Assembly (NCBI GenBank): GCA_965209225.1
Contig: OZ242379.1
Coordinates: 934,762-998,761 of the forward strand
Length of the DNA stretch: 64,000 bases
Direction of reading: 5' to 3'
Origin: Thermodesulfobacteriota bacterium
Lineage (GTDB): Bacteria; Desulfobacterota_D; UBA1144; Nemesobacterales; Nemesobacteraceae
Below the pieces are notes generated by a model. That model was not told the origin of the DNA. It saw only the letters and a list, made by a program, of their open reading frames with translations, and searched no databases. This document shows positions 22,524 through 44,288 of this stretch, piece by piece; positions within the stretch are counted from its first letter, which is position 1, and every line of letters begins with the position of its first letter. The position numbers were made by a program, and so were the translations under genes.

Positions 22524-22913
22524 ATGGCAATAATATACTCGGACGAGGAGATTAGATCGTTGGTTCAAGAACATAAGCCTTTGCCTGTTGATTGGCGTAA
22601 ACAGTCTGGTCTGAGACCCAAACGAGGTCACGATGAGCAGCAACTGGAATTTGTTGGTAGCGCAAACAGCAAATTCCGTATTATTTTCAGACGGAGCCAT
22701 ATTAATCCACTTGATTTTTCGATCATTCTTGCTGTTCATGTCCCTCAATCAAATCAAGTTTTTCGCCTTCGTCGTTACAATGGTAGAAGCCACGAGCACA
22801 CAAACCATATTGAAGATGTGACTTTCTACGATTTCCATATTCACTTTGCTACGGAGCGATATCAGGGGATTGGGGCACGGGAAGATGCCTATGCTCAACC
22901 GACCGATCGCTAG
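22524..22913 (+). CDS. hypothetical protein in AT-rich region flanking IS unit
   Basis: 129-aa ORF, no motif recognised. Confidence 0.3.
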   Translation: MAIIYSDEEIRSLVQEHKPLPVDWRKQSGLRPKRGHDEQQLEFVGSANSKFRIIFRRSHINPLDFSIILAVHVPQSNQVFRLRRYNGRSHEHTNHIEDVTFYDFHIHFATERYQGIGAREDAYAQPTDR

Positions 22914-22934
22914 AGCGATCTCTACGGAGCTCTT

Positions 22935-22942
22935 AAATGTTT
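22935..22942. repeat. left target-site duplication AAATGTTT
   Basis: Identical 8-mer directly abuts both IS termini, same strand. Confidence 0.7.
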
Positions 22943-23019
22943 GGGAATTATGTATTTGACTTGACAAGACATAACACAGGATATAGAATTGTGCCTAATC
23001 CCCTGAAAGGGCGCAATTC

Positions 23020-23388
23020 ATGGACTCTTGGAAGTTTGCTTGCACTGAAACCGCTATTTTCCTCTTCGGAGTTTGGGTAAGTTCTATGTTTCCAGATTTT
23101 TCCCATTGGATTTGGCCTGTTGTAGCCTTAATGCTTTTTCTTTTTGGAATGGGAAAGTTCGACACGCCTACAAATTGGATTTTCCGAAGAGAAAAAAAAC
23201 CTGCTGATGACAATATCCATGCAGAATTAGTTGCTCTTGCGAGAAGAGTTCAGCGAGGCGAAGCTACTTTCGAGCAGGAAAAACGATATCATACAATTCT
23301 TGCACGGCATCCCCTTTATTGGCATGATAACCCTGAAGATTACGAGAAGATAATACAGAAAGCACGTTCATTGGCCAGATTTGCATAA
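23020..23388 (+). CDS. cargo: hypothetical membrane protein
   Basis: Two predicted TM helices, inside IS unit. Confidence 0.4.
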   Translation: MDSWKFACTETAIFLFGVWVSSMFPDFSHWIWPVVALMLFLFGMGKFDTPTNWIFRREKKPADDNIHAELVALARRVQRGEATFEQEKRYHTILARHPLYWHDNPEDYEKIIQKARSLARFA

Positions 23389-23607
23389 TTGTTGATATTG
23401 TTCAGTCGCTTTCTTCGTCTTCGTAAATAGTAATTTCTTCCCCTTCCGGTGGAACCCCCATCAGAACTCGGACTACATCGTCAAACTCCAACTGCGACAT
23501 GTCGGGAATCTGTGGTTCGGTTTCTTTCTTGTCTGGCATTACTGGGCACCCCTAAGCTTTTCAGAATGGGTACAGTCTACCTGATTCCGAAGATTTTTCA
23601 ACGTCAT

Positions 23608-23979
23608 CTAATGTCTCTGCTCTCCCATTATCCCTAACTGTTCTCGGATTTTTCTTTCCTGTTCACTTAACCCTTGTTTCTCCTTCTTTTTCATTCCCAA
23701 TTGCCTTCTGAACTCATCCCCGCTGTCGTCCATAGAGAGAAAAGAACCCATTTTGGAAGCAACGCTTCTTCTTGGTTTTCTTTCGGGCAACTCTATGCCA
23801 TGCTTGATGGCTATTTTCCGTAATATCTCCAGTTCTTCCTCTTGTGCCTCGGCTCTTTTTGCTTCTTGGTGGCTTGAGGCTATCTTAAAGGCTGCATTAG
23901 TCGTAGTGTTGAAAACACCGAGCACAAGCATAAAAAACATAAAAACACCACCAATCAGAATCCATATCAGAAACAACAT
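23608..23979 (-). CDS. cargo: hypothetical membrane-anchored protein
   Basis: N-terminal TM helix then charged coiled region. Confidence 0.4.
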   Translation of the reverse strand: MLFLIWILIGGVFMFFMLVLGVFNTTTNAAFKIASSHQEAKRAEAQEEELEILRKIAIKHGIELPERKPRRSVASKMGSFLSMDDSGDEFRRQLGMKKKEKQGLSEQERKIREQLGIMGEQRH

Positions 23980-23992
23980 TCTTCAAACCTCC

Positions 23993-24142
23993 TTAGTCAT
24001 TCGGGCAATGGCACTCGATTGCGTTCCCTGCTGTGTCCACGACCTTGGTTTCGCAGTTCACGGGGCAATCCTCCAAGTCGAACAGGTCGCAAGCTGCGAC
24101 GAGCAGAAAAAGCAAAACGCACAACCCCCAAACAACTTTCAT
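23993..24142 (-). CDS. cargo: small Cys-rich lipoprotein (about 49 aa; mature peptide about 31 aa with 5 Cys)
   Basis: MKVVWGLCVLLFLLVAAC lipobox signal followed by CPVNC...CHC. Confidence 0.4.
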   Translation of the reverse strand: MKVVWGLCVLLFLLVAACDLFDLEDCPVNCETKVVDTAGNAIECHCPND

Positions 24143-24155
24143 TTTCTCAAGCCCC

Positions 24156-24446
24156 CTAATCGGGTAAGACCCGGTAATCTCCGTACTCATTTATAATCAC
24201 TTCATAGGAATATGTTGAGCGATTACATTTCACCTTGAATCCTGTTTTCCCCCACAGTTTTCGCACTATCGTTACACTGTTGCATGGATAGCCAGATGCG
24301 TGAATAGTGGCAACCAGTGTACCAACATAGCTGGATAAGCCTGAACCGATATACCCATCGGGTTCTATAGTTACGGTCTTTGCGTCCCAGGAAAAGAACA
24401 CAACAGAGGCAACGAAAATGACGCTAAACAGCAGAACCTTCTTCAT
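24156..24446 (-). CDS. cargo: small secreted hypothetical protein
   Basis: N-terminal signal peptide MKKVLLFSVIFVASVVF. Confidence 0.45.
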   Translation of the reverse strand: MKKVLLFSVIFVASVVFFSWDAKTVTIEPDGYIGSGLSSYVGTLVATIHASGYPCNSVTIVRKLWGKTGFKVKCNRSTYSYEVIINEYGDYRVLPD

Positions 24447-24787
24447 GAGTCACCTCCTGTTTTCTTCAGCAGTTCCTTCATCCTGTCGAAATCTGTTACC
24501 AGCCGGGGTTCTCCAGCGAAACAGTCCTTATCGTAAGAAACCATCGTATAAGCGGACTTCTCGCCTATTGACGCAAAGACATACATGTCCTTGGTTTTCG
24601 GGTCGCATCCGATAACTTCAACCTCGTCAAAGTCACCTGCATCCTTTAACTCTTTATAGGCTTCCTCAAGGGCGACCGTCATCGCCCGGCATGAAAGGTG
24701 ACAGATTTCTTCTCCCCGTGCCTGATTGACGGCACAAGCCACCCCCATGACCCCAAACAGGGTCATAAAGACCAACAATGTTCTCAT
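24443..24787 (-). CDS. cargo: small secreted/lipoprotein hypothetical protein with 4 Cys
   Basis: Signal peptide MRTLLVFMTLFGVMGVACA; 4-bp overlap with downstream gene. Confidence 0.45.
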   Translation of the reverse strand: MRTLLVFMTLFGVMGVACAVNQARGEEICHLSCRAMTVALEEAYKELKDAGDFDEVEVIGCDPKTKDMYVFASIGEKSAYTMVSYDKDCFAGEPRLVTDFDRMKELLKKTGGDS

Positions 24788-25052
24788 AGTAATCTCCTAC
24801 GTGTTTGGGGTTAACAGAGGTGGCACGGGGTGCCTCGGCATAAATTGGTGCCGGGTCTTGTCGACACCAGATAGAATCTGAAGTTGCGTGTATTCCCCGA
24901 GACCGGGTCTTGTATTGGACGCAAACCCGGCGGAGCGGGTTCTATCCAGTGTCGACATTCTAACTATATCACACCGAGGAAGGGTAATCTATGAGAATTT
25001 CGTAATCTTGAGAAACGGGTATAATTCCCGCAAGCAAAATTAGGAGGTTGTT

Positions 25053-25298
25053 GTGACGGAAGACCTGCTTAAGGATGTAAAAGGGGATTTTGAAAACATA
25101 GAAGAGGTAGAAAAACACGACGAAAGAGGAAGCGATTTCTTGTTTGTTAAAGATGTACGCTTTAGAAAATCAAAAGACCCAGAAGGCAATACTTTGGTGA
25201 TTTTTGAATTTCAAGGTCTTACGAAGCTTAGGGCCGTAAAAATATCTGCTGAAAATCTCAAACGACTTGAGAAGCAGATTCAGATTTATCGCAGTTGA
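25053..25298 (+). CDS. cargo: hypothetical protein (GTG start, ggagg RBS)
   Basis: 81-aa ORF. Confidence 0.35.
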   Translation: MTEDLLKDVKGDFENIEEVEKHDERGSDFLFVKDVRFRKSKDPEGNTLVIFEFQGLTKLRAVKISAENLKRLEKQIQIYRS

Positions 25299-25503
25299 CG
25301 AAGATGTTTATATCCCAGCCGTTGACATTAAACCACAGTATAGAATCTCTGTAATTTCCGCTTGAAGAGAATCCTTCCTCCGCTATTTTGCCAGCCAAAT
25401 CTCGAAGTTTGACTATCGTTTCCTCAAATTCCCTGATTAACGGCCTTTCATAATCCGAATGGCTATCGGCAGTTTTTTCTACAAGTTCCGGCAATGCTTC
25501 CAT
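25258..25503 (-). CDS. cargo: hypothetical protein
   Basis: 81-aa ORF convergent with previous. Confidence 0.3.
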   Translation of the reverse strand: MEALPELVEKTADSHSDYERPLIREFEETIVKLRDLAGKIAEEGFSSSGNYRDSILWFNVNGWDINIFVNCDKSESASQVV

Positions 25504-25537
25504 TTCCCATCTTACTACTGGGGAAATGGGTAAGTTG

Positions 25538-26476
25538 TCAAGAGATAAGTTCTTTGTAAGTCAGCCTTTTCCCCACAAGTCCGTTTATCGTGGCGTTTAT
25601 CTGGTCCATGGTGTCCATGGGGCGGACATTGTTGCGGTTTGAAAACTCGTCAATGTACTTCTGAAGGTGCTTGACGCTCATCTTGTGGTAAATGCCGTAG
25701 TATCCACGCTTCAGTAATGCCCAAAAGCTTTCTACGCCGTTAGTGTGGGCTTCCCCTTTAACGTATTCTCCGACCGAGTGATGAACCGTTGCGTGTTCAT
25801 ATCCCTTTTCCTTCAGTCCCGAGTAGCTTTTGTAGTCATCGGTAAATATCACGCTTCCCTTTTCCACATGACTGAGGATGATCCAGTGAAGGGTTTGAGC
25901 ATCAGTGCTTTCCACCCGCAGAGCTCTTACCTTTTTGCTTTCCCTATCCTTGATTCCCACAACCGGAGTTTTGCCTACAGCGCCACGTCCCTTTTTGAGC
26001 TTCTTTTTCTCGTGCTTGTTCTTTTCCAGTCCTCCGAGGTAAGCCTCGTCAACCTCTACGATCCTTCCGAAAAGACGGGAAGCGTTGTTGGCCCAGCCCT
26101 GGCGGATTCTGTGAGCAAGGAACCACGCTGACCTCTGCTGTATTCCGAGATCGTTTCCGAGCTTGGTACTGGATACACCCTTTAAGGAAGTGGACATAAG
26201 GTAGATAGCCATCAACCATTTCCGGTAGGAGAGGGGGCTTTCTTCCATTAAAGTTCCGGTCTTGGCACTGAAATACTTGCGGCAGGGCTTGCACCAGTAA
26301 GGCATTTCCTTGTGGCTTGCTTCCCTGGTTTCTTCGGAACCGCAACGAGGGCAGCTCCTTCCGTCCGCCCATCTCATTTTCTCAAAATGCTTCCTGGCTT
26401 TCTCTTCCGTGTTGAAGAGTTCCATAAAGTCATAAAAACTGATTCTTTCTCTTGCTGACTTGGGTTTCTGTCCCAT
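25538..26476 (-). CDS. IS1595-family transposase (N-terminal zinc ribbon + ISXO2-like DDE domain)
   Basis: CPRCGSEET...CKPCRKYF zinc ribbon; DDE region with HTNGVESFWALLKRG. Confidence 0.9.
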   Translation of the reverse strand: MGQKPKSARERISFYDFMELFNTEEKARKHFEKMRWADGRSCPRCGSEETREASHKEMPYWCKPCRKYFSAKTGTLMEESPLSYRKWLMAIYLMSTSLKGVSSTKLGNDLGIQQRSAWFLAHRIRQGWANNASRLFGRIVEVDEAYLGGLEKNKHEKKKLKKGRGAVGKTPVVGIKDRESKKVRALRVESTDAQTLHWIILSHVEKGSVIFTDDYKSYSGLKEKGYEHATVHHSVGEYVKGEAHTNGVESFWALLKRGYYGIYHKMSVKHLQKYIDEFSNRNNVRPMDTMDQINATINGLVGKRLTYKELIS

Positions 26477-26549
26477 TGAACTGACCTCCTTAACTGTGTA
26501 AAATTCTACACGATTTAAAAAGGTTTGTCAAGTCAAATACATAATTCCC

Positions 26550-26557
26550 AAATGTTT
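26550..26557. repeat. right target-site duplication AAATGTTT
   Basis: Identical to 22935-22942; 8-bp TSD is the size expected for the IS1595 family. Confidence 0.7.
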
Positions 26558-26623
26558 GATTGAGGATGTAAATCTTGAAGTTCCGCATGAACTGCAAGGC
26601 AATCTTTTTTAGGAGGTTGAACA

Positions 26624-27409
26624 GTGTCCATTGAAGCCATAGAGCGAGATTTTCGTGAGAAAATTTCGACCAAGATTCGTCTCGAGGCAGAAGGTGTGGA
26701 GCGCTTCCGCGTGTTTACCCCTTTTTTGTTCGAGGATGGAGATCATTTAGCAATCGTTCTCAAAAGAGAGGGAGCGCGATGGTTGCTCTCCGATGAGGCT
26801 CATACATATATGCACCTTACCTACGATATCAATGAACGGGATCTTCACAGTGGTACGCGCCAGAAAATAATCTCCAACACATTGTCTACATTCAAGGTGG
26901 AGGATCGCCATGGAGAGTTGGTGCTTGATGTGCCGGATCAGCGTTACGGTGACGCGTTATATTCTTTTATACAGGCGCTCCTGAAGATTTCTTACGTATC
27001 ATATCTGTCGCGAGGCCGTATCCAGTCCACTTTCGCAGAGGATTTTCGAACATTCCTGAAAGAAGTTGTTCCGCGAGAGCGCATGAGTTTTGACTGGAGC
27101 GACAAAGAGCGTGATAACCTTGGGATTTACACGGTGGATTGCCGAATCAACAGCATGCCCCGACCGCTTTTTGTACATGCTCTTTCCAATGACGGTAAGA
27201 CCCGCGATGCCACAATTGCGTTGCTTCAGTTTGAAAGATGGGGGATTCAGTTTCGTTCTCTGGCTGTTTTTGAGGATCAGGAGTCGATCAATCGAAAGGT
27301 ACTGGCACGTTTCAGCGATGTATGCGAGAAGCAGTTCTCAAGCCTGACCGCGAACCGCGAGAGAATCACACGTTTTCTGGAGGAAAATATTTCCTCCATC
27401 TCCGGTTAG
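26624..27409 (+). CDS. hypothetical protein (IS inserted just upstream)
   Basis: 261-aa ORF, no confident family assignment. Confidence 0.45.
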
Positions 27410-41783: not shown

Positions 41784-44288
41784 ATGATTGAAAGCTACTT
41801 TACCCCTGAGGCTGCAGAGTTCATCAGGGAGGCAATAACTGAGGCCTATGGAAACGAGGTCTTTTTAGTCGGCAGGGTAAATGAAAATTCTCTGGTCTGC
41901 GATATAAAAGTCCTTGCGCGCGGCAACCGCCAGGCGGTTCCGGCCATCCTTGACGCGGCGAAAACGGGGAACGTGGTTGTGCATAATCATCCCTCGGGCA
42001 ACCTCGAACCTTCACCCCAGGACGTGGCAGTCGCTTCGGCTTTCGGAAACAAGGGCGTCGGTTTCTACATAGTGGACAGCGAGGTCGAGAAGGTGTACGT
42101 AGTTGTTGAGCCTTTTGTTCCGGGGGAGAAGGTACGTGTTGACAATGAATCCGCGAGGGAATATCTTCTGCCCGCAGGTCCCGTGGCCCGCGTCCTGGGA
42201 GAGAAATACGAGCACAGGGAGGAGCAGCTGGAAGTCCTCTCAAACGTAATTGACGCATTCAACGAGGAACACCTCTCAATGATAGAGGCCGGCACGGGCA
42301 CCGGAAAAACTCTTTCCTACCTCATCCCTTCCATTCTCTGGTCAATTGGCAACAGTGAGAGGGTTCTGGTCTCAACAAACACCATCAATCTTCAGGAACA
42401 GCTGATAAACAAGGATCTTCCCCTTCTTCGGGATCTTTTCCCGAGGAAATTTGATTACGCTCTCGTTAAGGGAATGAGAAACTACTTCTGTCTTCTCCGC
42501 GGCGAAGCCGTCGGGCAGGATCTTTTCGATTTTATAGACGACGGGGAAAGAGGTTCCATGAAGGATATTCTTGAGTGGGCCAGGACCACCTCGGACGGCT
42601 CACTTTCCGATCTTGCGCTCACGCCCCCTGACGATGTGTGGGACAGGGTGTCTGCGGAAAGCGAAAGCTGCCCGGGGACCAAGTGCCCCCACTATTCGAG
42701 CTGCTTTTTCTTCAAGTCGCGGAGGGATCTCTCGAGGGCCTCGGTGCTGGTTGCCAACCACCACATGCTTTTCTCCGATATTGCTATAAAAGGGACTGCG
42801 GGACCCGATTCGGATTTCGGGATAATTCCCCGCTACGCGAAGGTCGTTTTCGACGAGGCGCACAATATCGCCGAGGCGGCCACTTCGCACTTCAGTCTGA
42901 AACTTAGCAAGCACGGAATTGCGAAGACGCTTTCAAAGCTTCGTTCCCGGAAAAACAGGGACAAGGGGCTTGTATCCTACATCTCGCACCTCGCGCAGAA
43001 AGAAAAGGATTCCGCCCTCAGGGAGGTTTTCGAGCGCTCGGCCGGCGGGCTTGCGAGGGCCGTTGAGCGCATAGAGACGGTAAGCGAAGAGGTCTTTAAT
43101 TCGCTTTACGGTTTTGGGGCGGATCTCTCGGGCGAAACGTCGATAAGCCTGAGGCTCACAGAAGAGGTTATGCGGCACGAGAAGTGGCCTGCCGTTGAGG
43201 AGCGGTTCGGGGCGCTTGAGAAAACTCTCTTTTCGCTTGAAAACGAGATTGCCCATCTGCTCGGAGTAGTCGAGGGATCACCTCACGCGGATTCCCACAT
43301 AAAACTCACCGCTGAGCTTGGAGGCATCGCTAAGAGGTCCCTTGCTTTCCGCGAAGCCATAGGAAGGTTTTTTGGCGAGCAGGACGAGAGCTATATAAGA
43401 TGGTTTGAAGGGAACCGCAGAAGGGCGGCGATTTTCTGCTCCATCAACCTCTCCCCGCTTGATGTATCCAAGGAGCTTTCGGAAAAGCTCTACTCGAAAA
43501 CCAAAACCGTCGTTATGACTTCCGCGTCGCTTGCCGTGGATAAGAATTTCGATTTCCAGAGGAAAAACATCGGGCTTTCGGATAATGAAAGATTCAGGGG
43601 GCTTATTGTTGATTCACCGTTTGATTTCCGAACGCAGTCCCTGCTGCTGGTCCCGTCGGATATGCCCGAGCCCGGGCGCGAGGACTACGAAGATTCCCTC
43701 GCGCGGATACTCTCGGACTCGATCTCCGTAACGAACGGAAACGCCCTCGTGCTTTTCACCTCTTATTCCTCGCTTAACAGGGTTTATGAAAAGACGGGGA
43801 AAATTCTTGAGACCATCGGGGCCGTCCCGGTCAGTCTTTTCAGGCAGGGGGAAATGCCCAGGGGTCTGCTGCTTGAAAAATTCAAAACGCTTGGGAACTC
43901 GGTGCTTTTCGCGACCGACAGCTTCTGGGAAGGAGTAGACATTCCCGGGGACTCCCTGAAGATGGTCGTTATATGCAGACTTCCCTTCAAGGTTCCCACG
44001 GATCCGGTTACGGAGGCGAAAATCGAGTACATGGAAAAACAGGATATGGATTCGTTTCGCGAATACATACTTCCCCACGCGGTACTCAGGTTCAAGCAGG
44101 GCTTCGGAAGACTCATACGCACCAAGACGGACCGCGGTGTTGTTATGGTTCTTGACAGGCGCATCGTGTCGAAGTACTACGGGAAATTCTTTATCAACTC
44201 CGTTGCGGGGAGCGGCTTCTTCTGCGCGAAGACGGAACAGGTACTCGGACGGATGCGGGATTTTTTCTCTGAGGAGCGAGAGCACTGA
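41784..44288 (+). CDS. dinG: RadC-like JAB/MPN domain fused to DinG-family (Rad3/XPD-like) ATP-dependent DNA helicase
   Basis: N-terminal HNHPSGNLEPSPQD JAMM/RadC motif (aa ~60-75); then Walker A AGTGTGKT, DEAH box VVFDEAHN and C-terminal helicase motifs. Confidence 0.8.
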   Translation: MIESYFTPEAAEFIREAITEAYGNEVFLVGRVNENSLVCDIKVLARGNRQAVPAILDAAKTGNVVVHNHPSGNLEPSPQDVAVASAFGNKGVGFYIVDSEVEKVYVVVEPFVPGEKVRVDNESAREYLLPAGPVARVLGEKYEHREEQLEVLSNVIDAFNEEHLSMIEAGTGTGKTLSYLIPSILWSIGNSERVLVSTNTINLQEQLINKDLPLLRDLFPRKFDYALVKGMRNYFCLLRGEAVGQDLFDFIDDGERGSMKDILEWARTTSDGSLSDLALTPPDDVWDRVSAESESCPGTKCPHYSSCFFFKSRRDLSRASVLVANHHMLFSDIAIKGTAGPDSDFGIIPRYAKVVFDEAHNIAEAATSHFSLKLSKHGIAKTLSKLRSRKNRDKGLVSYISHLAQKEKDSALREVFERSAGGLARAVERIETVSEEVFNSLYGFGADLSGETSISLRLTEEVMRHEKWPAVEERFGALEKTLFSLENEIAHLLGVVEGSPHADSHIKLTAELGGIAKRSLAFREAIGRFFGEQDESYIRWFEGNRRRAAIFCSINLSPLDVSKELSEKLYSKTKTVVMTSASLAVDKNFDFQRKNIGLSDNERFRGLIVDSPFDFRTQSLLLVPSDMPEPGREDYEDSLARILSDSISVTNGNALVLFTSYSSLNRVYEKTGKILETIGAVPVSLFRQGEMPRGLLLEKFKTLGNSVLFATDSFWEGVDIPGDSLKMVVICRLPFKVPTDPVTEAKIEYMEKQDMDSFREYILPHAVLRFKQGFGRLIRTKTDRGVVMVLDRRIVSKYYGKFFINSVAGSGFFCAKTEQVLGRMRDFFSEEREH

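What the first reader, a model, noticed from the sequence alone, without database searches (positions are those of the whole stretch)
22935..26557. 3.6-kb IS1595-family transposable unit with perfect 25-bp terminal inverted repeats, an 8-bp AAATGTTT target duplication and about 2.5 kb of cargo genes
The sequence gggaattatgtatttgacttgacaa occurs at 22943-22967 and as an exact reverse complement at 26525-26549. The identical 8-mer aaatgttt abuts each terminus on the same strand, a hallmark target-site duplication of the size expected for the IS1595 family. Only the right-hand 1 kb encodes the transposase (25538-26476). An internal, imperfect inverted-repeat-like sequence at 25521-25548 marks where a minimal IS would end. 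The unit therefore moved as a whole with its passenger genes, as a transporter IS.
Basis: seen in the sequence. Interest (0 to 1): 0.7.

Follow-up and report, generated by a model that had tools for sequence, protein, structure and literature searches.

The report
IS1595 transposon carrying passenger genes
This is a 3.6-kb jumping gene of a known type (an IS1595-family "transporter IS") that landed inside another gene and brought along a small operon of secreted proteins led by a structured RNA; it is a well-documented example rather than a new kind of element.

Summary
A perfect 25-bp inverted repeat (22943-22967 / 26525-26549) bounds a 3,607-bp unit. An exact 8-bp direct repeat, AAATGTTT, flanks it. 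One end encodes an intact IS1595-family transposase with a zinc ribbon and a DDE domain.

Deleting the unit plus one repeat copy restores the reading frame of a conserved gene that is uninterrupted in about 70 metagenomic loci. So the whole unit inserted as one piece.

Relatives in Dadabacteria and other phyla have the same GGGAATTAT... ends 2.3-5.6 kb apart, each with its own 8-bp duplication. Several occur as near-identical multi-copy units that include their cargo.

The claimed internal inverted repeat at 25521-25548 is no better than chance, and no relative ends there.

Beyond the finding:
- The cargo is a cassette: an extended -10 promoter, a 130-nt structured leader RNA related to sRNA-Xcc1 (below the Rfam threshold), and four small secreted-protein or lipoprotein genes.
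- The same cassette, 78% identical in DNA, sits in another IS1595 element whose transposase is only 45% identical.
- Most relatives instead carry DNA methyltransferase-nuclease genes.

Verdict: a new member of a known kind (transporter IS). Interest is moderate.

The parts
22935..22942 (.). Left copy of the 8-bp target-site duplication, AAATGTTT
   Evidence: Read directly. It is identical to 26550-26557. Keeping a single copy restores the target gene frame.
22943..22967 (+). Terminal inverted repeat at the end far from the transposase gene (25 bp, perfect)
   Evidence: The identical 25-mer forms both ends of the L001 element.
22961..22989 (+). Inward-facing promoter-like site TTGACA-17-TAGAAT (11 of 12), with its -35 hexamer inside the inverted repeat
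   Evidence: It mirrors the site at the transposase end. Function is inferred.
23020..23388 (+). ORF of 122 aa, a predicted membrane protein; the first gene inward from the distal inverted repeat
   Evidence: No Pfam or NCBIfam match. Weak similarity (28% identity, E 0.018) to the 140-aa ORF next to an inverted repeat in L160.
23402..23539 (-). Small acidic ORF of 45 aa, conserved in the four closest elements (W, L001, L003, L004). It occupies the same position as the small distal ORF of the wider clade.
   Evidence: Homology to the DATPEE-motif family was not demonstrated (HMM no hit; hhalign P 0.02).
23608..23979 (-). Cargo ORF of 123 aa with an N-terminal transmembrane segment; fourth gene of the operon
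   Evidence: Its 5' part lies in the 78%-identical block shared with L160; L160 has a 126-aa ORF at the same position.
23993..24142 (-). Cargo ORF for a small cysteine-rich lipoprotein-like protein. It probably starts at the internal ATG (49 aa, MKVVWGLCVLLFLLVAAC...).
   Evidence: One search lists 23993-24190. The counterparts in L160 and L166 are 49 aa. The start site is inferred.
24156..24446 (-). Cargo ORF of 96 aa, a secreted protein with a signal peptide
   Evidence: Ten homologues at 66-93% identity. The ORF after the L014 RNA leader shares motifs with it by eye (not scored). AF2 model pLDDT 66, and no fold match in the PDB.
24443..24787 (-). Cargo ORF of 114 aa, a secreted protein with a signal peptide; first gene after the RNA leader
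   Evidence: Eight homologues at 64-100% identity. No family match.
24835..24973 (-). Structured leader RNA of about 130 nt with an extended -10 box (TGATATAGT) just upstream. It is related to Rfam sRNA-Xcc1 but scores below that family's threshold.
   Evidence: Rfam 35.8 bits against a gathering score of 53. MFE z-score -6.0. Eight full-length matches to my covariance model (seven distinct sequences; L165 = L166). 13 of 17 outer-stem pairs show compensatory changes.
25053..25503 (.). Two overlapping 81-aa ORFs (25053-25298 on +, 25258-25503 on -). It is uncertain which, if either, is a gene.
   Evidence: No family match. No similarity to the L160 ORFs at the same place.
25538..26476 (-). Transposase of 312 aa, IS1595 family (zinc ribbon plus DDE domain), full length
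   Evidence: Cysteines 42, 45, 62 and 65, and D143 and D213, are conserved in 36-38 of 38 relatives.
26503..26531 (-). Promoter-like site TTGACA-17-TAGAAT (11 of 12) for the transposase gene, with its -35 hexamer inside the inverted repeat
   Evidence: Function is inferred.
26525..26549 (-). Terminal inverted repeat at the transposase end (25 bp, perfect)
26550..26557 (.). Right copy of the 8-bp target-site duplication, AAATGTTT
22524..22934 (+). 5' part of the disrupted target gene. It also has an in-frame TAG at 22911-22913 where homologues have a Tyr codon.
26558..26612 (+). 3' remnant of the disrupted target gene (…IEDVNLEVPHELQGNLF*)

Best explanation
This is a transporter insertion sequence (tIS) of the IS1595 family. 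It is a single 3,607-bp transposable unit bounded by perfect 25-bp inverted repeats.

Its one DDE transposase recognises both ends and moved the whole unit, cargo included, into the 3' part of a conserved roughly 160-aa gene. That gene lies directly upstream of a DUF1828 gene. The insertion duplicated 8 bp of target (AAATGTTT).

Each end carries an inward-facing near-consensus promoter whose -35 hexamer lies inside the inverted repeat. One drives the transposase gene. The other drives a small membrane-protein gene (inferred).

The cargo is not random flanking DNA. It is a self-contained expression cassette: an extended -10 promoter, a structured leader RNA of about 130 nt, and an operon of four small exported proteins. 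The same cassette occurs in other, diverged IS1595-family elements. A small ORF conserved among the closest relatives lies between the cassette and the 122-aa membrane-protein ORF at the distal end.

Shown here: the inverted repeats, the duplication, the transposase family, the reconstructed empty site, relatives with cargo, and multi-copy relatives. Inferred: present-day activity, promoter use, the role of the RNA as a 5' leader, and the function of the exported proteins (unknown).
For: - Perfect inverted repeat, unique in the window, with 0 matches in 100 shuffles, and an exact 8-bp direct repeat.
- Transposase family: Pfam DDE_Tnp_IS1595 1.7e-43, Zn_ribbon_IS1595 3.2e-09, NCBIfam transpos_IS1595 2.4e-57.
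- An 8-bp duplication is the family norm (PMC8101967). IS1595-family elements with passenger genes were defined as tIS by Siguier et al. 2009, as quoted in PMC11891212.
- Empty site: about 70 of 80 metagenomic loci have the upstream gene immediately followed by DUF1828. The window with the unit removed aligns colinearly across the junction and regains the frame.
- Relatives with the same ends: L001 2,958 bp (duplication TATTTTTT), L003 3,296 bp, L004 5,578 bp (TAACAAAT). About 18 further units of 2.3-5.6 kb have GGG(A/G)ATTAT ends and matching 8-bp duplications.
- Multi-copy units identical up to the inverted repeats: L053/56/57, L017/18, L036/37.
- Cargo cassette shared with L160: 78% nt identity over 1.3 kb, while the transposases are 45% identical and the inverted repeats differ. 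A related cassette is in L167.
- The RNA structure is supported by covariation.
Against: - Only one copy is visible in the 64-kb window, and the rest of the source genome could not be read. Present activity is therefore unproven.
- No empty site from the same species was found. The reconstruction relies on homologues about 70% identical in DNA.
- The target gene also carries a nonsense codon, so the order of the two events is unknown.
- The cargo proteins have no recognisable family or fold, so any benefit to element or host is speculative.
- Assignment to a subgroup of the family (ISNwi1-like, judged from the end sequence) rests on memory of ISfinder and was not tested.
Confidence: 0.9

Rival explanations
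1. A minimal IS of about 1.03 kb (25521-26549) sits next to unrelated DNA, and the sequence at 22943 is a solo or remnant inverted repeat. On this view the 3.6-kb 'unit' never moved as one piece.
For: There is an IR-like stretch right after the transposase stop codon (25521-25548), with 12 of 14 matches to the left end.
Against: The match is at chance level: score 18 against a 99th percentile of 17. It overlaps the transposase stop codon. AAATGTTT flanks the outer ends, not 25521. Removing the whole 3,615 bp restores a conserved ORF. All close relatives have distal inverted repeats 2-4.6 kb beyond the transposase gene, each with a duplication (exact in L001 and L004, offset by 1 nt in L003).
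Confidence: 0.03
2. The unit is a fusion of two elements: an ordinary IS and a transposase-less, IR-bounded cargo element (nested or tandem). It now moves by its outermost ends.
For: A third GGGAATTAT 9-mer lies at 25029 (-), 17 bp from the start of the block shared with L160 (25046) and in the orientation of a transposase-end repeat. L001 carries an inverted fragment of a transposase C-terminus inside its cargo, which shows that nested rearrangements do happen in this lineage.
Against: Only 9 bases match. L160 has the motif only at its two termini, so it lacks it at the homologous position. The same 9-mer also occurs elsewhere in the window, at 8505 and 42830. No internal duplication is visible.
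Confidence: 0.08
3. The cargo was acquired by integron-like site-specific recombination. On this view the 17-bp hairpin of the 'RNA' is really a single-stranded DNA recombination site (attC-like).
For: The best Rfam match, sRNA-Xcc1, was described in integron cassettes. The hairpin arms covary while the sequence inside is conserved.
Against: No complementary RYYYAAC core on the far side, and only a near-match (GTTAGAA) to GTTRRRY on the near side in W that L075 lacks (read directly). G.U (G.T) wobble pairs make the stem strand-specific, on the sense strand of the downstream genes. A conserved extended -10 box precedes the stem, and a ribosome-binding site and ATG follow it, in all the instances read directly (W, L160, L075, L076, L014). 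The block shared with L160 starts about 80 bp upstream of the hairpin and ends inside a gene.
Confidence: 0.04
4. The element is a fixed, no longer mobile relic, and its perfect ends merely reflect a recent single insertion.
For: Only one copy is seen. The transposase is a singleton at 90% clustering among 15 billion proteins.
Against: The transposase ORF is intact with conserved zinc-ribbon cysteines and catalytic aspartates. The inverted repeats and the duplication are both perfect. Both promoters are near consensus. Related elements are clearly active, being multi-copy.
Confidence: 0.2

Closest known systems
IS1595-family transporter IS (tIS; the passenger-carrying ISNwi1+, ISPna2+ and ISNha5 groups of ISfinder; Siguier, Gagnevin & Chandler 2009)
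   Same: Single zinc-ribbon plus DDE transposase of the IS1595 family, short terminal inverted repeats starting GG, an 8-bp duplication, and passenger genes inside the inverted repeats. The ends GGGAATTAT fit the ISNwi1-group end consensus as I recall it from ISfinder (from memory, not tested).
   Different: The cargo here is an RNA-led operon of small exported proteins. Reviews cite regulators, methyltransferases or resistance genes. The transposase is at most 43% identical to any match with at least 90% coverage in the plasmid collection, so it is probably an unnamed IS.
Related Dadabacteria/Spirochaetia elements L001, L003, L004 (71-91% transposase identity)
   Same: Identical or near-identical 25-bp ends, 8-bp duplications, the transposase at one end, and a 45-48-aa ORF towards the far end.
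   Different: The cargo is otherwise unrelated. L003 carries a D12 adenine methyltransferase plus a 286-aa partner. L004 carries an Eco57I/MmeI-like 749-aa methyltransferase. L001 carries small membrane proteins.
L160 and L167 elements (ENA metagenome assemblies)
   Same: IS1595-family tIS with GGGAATTATAT... ends, 8-bp duplications (AATACGAT, AATGATAA), and the same RNA leader with an exported-protein operon.
   Different: The L160 transposase is only 45% identical to this one, the inverted repeats differ after the first 10 bases, and the gene order differs (in L160 the membrane-protein ORF lies between the inverted repeat and the transposase gene).
sRNA-Xcc1 (Rfam RF02221)
   Same: Shared core (AAUACAA-ACCC-loop-GGGGAAUA flanked by GCCGGG/CCCGGC). 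It is located on mobile elements directly upstream of a protein gene: symE in Xanthomonas integron cassettes and an ORF6N gene in APSE phages.
   Different: It scores 35.8-39.7 bits, below the gathering score of 53. It has an extra covarying outer stem of 16-17 bp that is not in the Rfam model. The downstream genes here are exported proteins.

Membership tests
IS1595 family (insertion sequences) | Transposase with the IS1595-type DDE catalytic domain | tested here: met
   Pfam PF12762 E 1.7e-43, full profile. NCBIfam NF033547 at 194 bits against a cut-off of 75.
IS1595 family (insertion sequences) | N-terminal zinc-ribbon domain (present in all groups except IS1016) | tested here: met
   PF12760 E 3.2e-09 at residues 23-67. 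The four cysteines are conserved in relatives. The feature itself is stated in PMC8101967.
IS1595 family (insertion sequences) | 8-bp target-site duplication | tested here: met
   AAATGTTT on both sides. Exact 8-bp duplications flank more than 20 related units. The family norm is given in PMC8101967.
IS1595 family (insertion sequences) | Short terminal inverted repeats bounding the element | tested here: met
   25 of 25 bp.
ISNwi1 subgroup of IS1595 (ISfinder) | End consensus ggnnatTAT and the subgroup-specific catalytic signature | not testable with these tools
   The ends GGGAATTAT fit the consensus as I remember it.
Transporter IS (tIS) | Passenger genes unrelated to transposition lie between the inverted repeats of an otherwise IS-like element | tested here: met
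   2.57 kb with at least 6 ORFs and one RNA between the transposase gene and the far inverted repeat. Definition quoted in PMC11891212.
Transporter IS (tIS) | The whole unit, cargo included, is what transposes | tested here: met
   Empty-site reconstruction. Multi-copy relatives are identical up to the inverted repeats. No experiment has been done on this copy.
Compound (composite) transposon | Two IS copies flanking the cargo | tested here: not met
   There is only one transposase gene and no second IS copy. The ends are bare 25-bp inverted repeats.
sRNA-Xcc1 (RF02221) | Score at or above the Rfam gathering threshold (53 bits) | tested here: not met
   35.8 bits in the window and 39.7 bits in L075. 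This makes it a relative or look-alike, not a certified member.
Integron gene cassette | An attC site with R''/R' core sites (RYYYAAC ... GTTRRRY) at the cassette boundary | tested here: not met
   No complementary core pair flanks the hairpin: only a near-match on one side in W, absent in L075 (read). The shared block does not end at the hairpin. The window was not searched for an integron integrase.

The most novel reading that the evidence does not exclude
The cargo is a portable expression cassette that hops between diverged IS1595-family backbones across phyla (Dadabacteria, Thermodesulfobacteriota, Bacteroidota). It consists of an extended -10 promoter, a roughly 130-nt structured leader RNA distantly related to sRNA-Xcc1, and a variable set of small exported proteins or lipoproteins. 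On this reading, sRNA-Xcc1-type RNAs are in general cis-acting 5' leaders (a stabilising or regulatory hairpin) of mobile-element genes rather than only trans-acting sRNAs. This IS clade would also have a defined backbone (transposase ... small distal ORF) with an internal cargo slot. That slot is usually filled by methyltransferase-nuclease fusions.
Probability: 0.4. Interest if true: 0.55.

Novelty: new member of a known kind. Interest (0 to 1): 0.38.

Why it matters
For annotation, it gives a cleanly bounded, probably unnamed IS1595-family transporter IS in Candidatus Dadabacteria. Its insertion site is proven by reconstruction, and it explains a pseudogene in a widespread two-gene module.

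More generally, the relatives show that this clade almost always carries cargo. Usually the cargo is a DNA methyltransferase fused to an HNH or Mrr nuclease, sometimes whole restriction-modification pairs. Here it is an RNA-led operon of exported proteins. The same cargo cassette can sit on backbones whose transposases are only 45% identical.

That makes these elements a tractable system for asking how small transposons acquire and swap passenger genes. It also suggests a cis-acting role for sRNA-Xcc1-like RNAs that could be tested directly.

Tried and rejected
- Exact-sequence look-ups returned nothing for the transposase, both flanking proteins, the aminotransferase and the 100%-identical cargo protein. 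The source genome is not in that index, so no same-species empty site and no count of other copies could be obtained.
- ISfinder subgroup: the FEMS review and the 2009 paper are not held. Searching 'ISNwi1' gave only two irrelevant papers. The plasmid tblastn returned only generic 'IS1595 family transposase' labels at 43% identity or less among matches with at least 90% coverage.
- Cargo function: there were no Pfam or NCBIfam hits for any cargo ORF. The AlphaFold2 model of the 96-aa protein was moderate (pLDDT 66), and Foldseek against the PDB gave nothing below E 0.9.
- Homology of the 45-aa ORF to the DATPEE/AT-hook small-ORF family: the HMM found no hit. hhalign aligned the expected motif but with P 0.02 and probability 2%. 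I treat it as a positional analogue only.
- RNAalifold on MAFFT alignments missed the long stem because the arms were misaligned by one column. This was solved by hand counting and a covariance-model alignment.
- I considered and rejected an attC or integron origin, a composite transposon, and the 25521 'minimal IS' end (see the rival explanations).
- The two 81-aa ORFs at 25053-25503 could not be resolved.

Full report
**1. Observation**

The 25-mer GGGAATTATGTATTTGACTTGACAA is at 22943-22967 on the + strand, and its exact reverse complement is at 26525-26549. With up to three mismatches allowed, these are the only two matches in the 64-kb window. None occurred in 100 dinucleotide-preserving shuffles.

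The octamer AAATGTTT directly abuts both termini on the same strand, at 22935-22942 and 26550-26557. The unit between the duplications is 3,607 bp.

The ORF at 25538-26476 (-) encodes 312 aa. It matches Pfam DDE_Tnp_IS1595 over the whole profile (E 1.7e-43), Zn_ribbon_IS1595 (E 3.2e-09) and NCBIfam transpos_IS1595 (194 bits, cut-off 75). The zinc-ribbon cysteines and the first two catalytic aspartates are conserved in 36-38 of 38 relatives.

**2. Did the whole unit insert?**

I used the single metagenome scan on the gene just right of the unit, a DUF1828 protein at 26624-27409.
- In about 70 of the 80 loci returned, a homologue of the ORF left of the unit (22524-22913) lies immediately upstream of the DUF1828 gene.
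- The window sequence with 22943-26557 deleted aligns colinearly with these loci across the junction, for example 864 columns to L080 without a break.
- In the homologues the upstream gene is about 160 aa and runs up to the DUF1828 start.
- Removing the unit plus one copy of AAATGTTT restores that frame...PTDR*SDLYGALKCL|IEDVNLEVPHELQGNLF*. Homologues read ...PTDRYGDLHQALRCLIEDANLDVPPEAQGRLFEET.

So the unit inserted precisely, as one piece, inside the 3' part of a conserved gene and duplicated 8 bp. The target gene also has TAG where all the homologues examined have a Tyr codon (22911-22913). It is now a pseudogene hit twice, and the order of the two events is unknown.

**3. Relatives**

A genome scan with the transposase returned 79 loci. 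The best were Candidatus Dadabacteria MAGs (91, 79 and 71% identity) and a Spirochaetia MAG (72%). The rest, at 45-55% identity, were mostly Dehalococcoidia, Rhodothermales and Acidobacteriota.

The same terminal sequence bounds units in the closest relatives:

| Locus | Unit length | Duplication |
|---|---|---|
| L001 | 2,958 bp | TATTTTTT |
| L003 | 3,296 bp | TAATTATT (1-nt offset at one end) |
| L004 | 5,578 bp | TAACAAAT |

A general inverted-repeat search found GGG(A/G)ATTAT... ends 2.3-5.6 kb apart, with matching 8-bp duplications, in about 18 further loci. Only one Rhodothermales genome, plus possibly L030 (a bare 12-bp match without a duplication), has short units of about 1.26-1.3 kb.

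By my count, the 21 exact duplications are 85% A+T.

Whole units are multi-copy within single genomes, and identity stops at the inverted repeats:
- L053/L056/L057: 3.41 kb at 99.97%.
- L017/L018: 3,194 bp at 100%.
- L036/L037: 2,488 bp at 100%.
- L070 equals L067 plus 1.77 kb of extra cargo.

**4. The internal inverted-repeat claim**

The stretch at 25521-25548 matches the left end only over TTGTCAAGAGATAA (12 of 14). Part of that match is to sequence beyond the 25-bp repeat. Its score of 18 is about the 99th percentile of random windows from this same sequence.

DNA similarity between this unit and L001, L003 and L004 simply stops at the transposase stop codon.

The shortest relatives end about 250 bp after the stop codon and contain a small second ORF. 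I therefore do not accept 25521 as a vestigial end.

A further GGGAATTAT 9-mer at 25029 (-) lies near the edge of the shared cargo block. It is absent from the homologous position in L160, and the 9-mer also occurs at 8505 and 42830. This is a weak lead for a fusion origin and nothing more.

**5. Anatomy and likely working**

*Ends.* Both ends carry an inward TTGACA-17-TAGAAT site (11 of 12) whose -35 hexamer lies inside the inverted repeat. One precedes the transposase gene. The other precedes a 122-aa membrane-protein ORF (23020-23388). A promoter inside an inverted repeat is a common way for transposase binding to repress its own gene (established knowledge; function here is inferred).

*Small distal ORF.* Towards the far end lies a 45-aa acidic ORF (23402-23539), conserved in the four closest elements. 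In the wider clade a small ORF sits at the same place, with an RGRP (AT-hook-like) motif followed by DATPEE[IV]AKA. An HMM detects it in at least 18 units. Homology between the two was not demonstrated.

*Cargo on the transposase strand, in order:*
- an uncertain 81-aa ORF;
- an extended -10 box (TGATATAGT);
- a structured RNA of about 130 nt (24835-24965);
- after a ribosome-binding site, four ORFs of 114, 96, about 49 and 123 aa. The first two have signal peptides, the third a lipobox, and the fourth an N-terminal transmembrane segment.

None of these ORFs has a Pfam or NCBIfam match. An AlphaFold2 model of the 96-aa protein (pLDDT 66; mature part 74-83) found no PDB fold with E below 0.9. 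The function of the exported proteins remains unknown.

**6. The RNA**

Rfam gives a sub-threshold match to sRNA-Xcc1: 35.8 bits against a gathering score of 53. A second match, at 39.7 bits, lies in the cargo of the Dadabacteria element L075.

The region folds far better than shuffles, with z-scores of -6.0 and -5.3.

A covariance model built from the window and L160 copies finds full-length matches in the window, L160, L165/L166, L076, L075 and L014 (E 6e-36 to 6e-07) and in L167 (E 5e-10).

On the model alignment:
- 95.7% of cells pair, against 34-45% when partners are slid.
- 13 of 17 outer-stem pairs show changes on both sides.
- No shuffle out of 500 reaches the observed score.
- A hand count gives the same picture and shows G.U pairs, which make the stem specific to the sense strand.

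Caveat: the alignment was fitted to the structure and includes two reverse-strand rows.

In all the instances read directly (W, L160, L075, L076, L014), a -10 box precedes the stem by about 8 nt. A ribosome-binding site and the ATG of an exported protein or lipoprotein follow within about 25-45 nt.

In the literature, sRNA-Xcc1 lies upstream of symE in Xanthomonas integron cassettes and upstream of an ORF6N gene in APSE phages.

My reading is that this is a 5' leader that travels with mobile-element genes. The terminal hairpin probably stabilises or regulates the mRNA. This is inferred, not shown.

**7. Cargo is modular**

The block at window 23783-25046 (RNA, the 114-, 96- and 49-aa genes, and the start of the 123-aa gene) is 78% identical over 1.3 kb to L160.

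L160 is a separate IS1595-family tIS of 4,050 bp. Its inverted repeat is GGGAATTATATCGAAAAGTCACATTTG and its duplication is AATACGAT. Its transposase is only 45% identical to the one here.

L167 is a third backbone, 4,733 bp with duplication AATGATAA. It carries the RNA and a 64%-identical homologue of the 114-aa protein.

Other relatives carry different cargo:
- N6_N4 methyltransferase fused to HNH: L053, L048, L006, L025, L075.
- N6_N4 methyltransferase fused to Mrr: L016, L067.
- C5 methylase-HNH: L036.
- D12 methyltransferase with a 286-aa partner: L003.
- An Eco57I/MmeI-like enzyme: L004.

The clade thus looks like a backbone with an internal cargo slot. The slot usually holds restriction-modification-type genes.

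**8. Comparison with what is known, and novelty**

IS1595-family elements with 8-bp duplications and an N-terminal zinc ribbon are well described. Members with passenger genes were named transporter IS in 2009.

Every family-defining feature I could test is met. The subgroup (ISNwi1-like ends, from memory) could not be tested. The element is not a composite transposon, and the RNA is not a certified sRNA-Xcc1 member.

The finding is therefore a new member of a known kind, and it is unusually well supported.

Three things are less expected:
- the RNA-led exported-protein cassette shared by diverged backbones;
- the near-universal cargo in this clade;
- the conserved small distal ORF.

These justify moderate interest (0.38). 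The most novel reading not excluded by the evidence is the portable leader-RNA cassette hypothesis, with probability about 0.4.

Noticed in passing
window 22524-22913 with 26558-26612, and 26624-27409: The insertion target is a two-gene module: a roughly 160-aa protein with no family match, followed directly by a DUF1828 protein. The module is very widespread. 369 metagenomic stretches were confirmed, at 64-79% aa identity among the 80 kept, from many environments. It sits here in a low-GC stretch (0.41-0.44 against about 0.52) between an aminotransferase gene and prfB. It may itself be mobile or defence-related. The upstream gene carries a TAG nonsense codon besides the IS insertion.
   Followed up: partly
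window 24835-24973 (-); L075 9363-9494; L076 5735-5859 (-); L014 3955-4085; L160 5481-5612; L165 4018-4145; L167 5257-5386: A structured RNA like sRNA-Xcc1, with a covarying 16-17-bp outer stem and its own extended -10 box. In the five instances read directly it lies directly upstream of an exported-protein or lipoprotein gene, in IS1595-family element cargo from several phyla. The core contains two copies of AAGACCCGG that could pair alternatively with GCCGGGUUU, which hints at a switch.
   Followed up: partly
window 8481-8505 (-): GGGAATTATATACTATTATCCCGTCTT resembles the end consensus of this IS clade (GGGAATTATATAC...), but no transposase gene is nearby. It lies just after two adjacent ORFs (7395-7814 and 7941-8288). 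The second carries a Fic motif (HPFDDGNGR), so together they look like a split Fic gene. This could be a solo IS end or chance.
   Followed up: no
L053, L048, L006, L025, L016, L067, L036, L075 (cargo ORFs just downstream of the transposase gene): Most 45-55% relatives carry a single ORF fusing a DNA methyltransferase (N6_N4 or C5) to an HNH or Mrr-type nuclease. It is followed by a 40-90-aa ORF with an RGRP AT-hook-like motif and a DATPEE[IV]AKA helix next to the far inverted repeat. I did not find this layout described in the papers I could search.
   Followed up: partly
L001 7950-8138 (unit positions 2031-2219, - strand): The cargo of the closest relative contains an inverted 62-aa fragment of an IS1595 transposase C-terminus. 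This is evidence of a past nested insertion or rearrangement inside the element.
   Followed up: no
L161-L164: The 96-aa exported-protein gene also occurs alone, without the RNA or its operon partners. There it lies next to D12 methyltransferase genes and fragments of ISL3 or Mutator-type transposases, so single cargo genes circulate independently.
   Followed up: no
window 42822-42830 (-) and 38769 (+): Further GGGAATTAT / GGGGATTAT 9-mers. With the other sites, GGGAATTAT occurs five times in the window where about 0.5 is expected by chance. Those outside the element were not examined.
   Followed up: no
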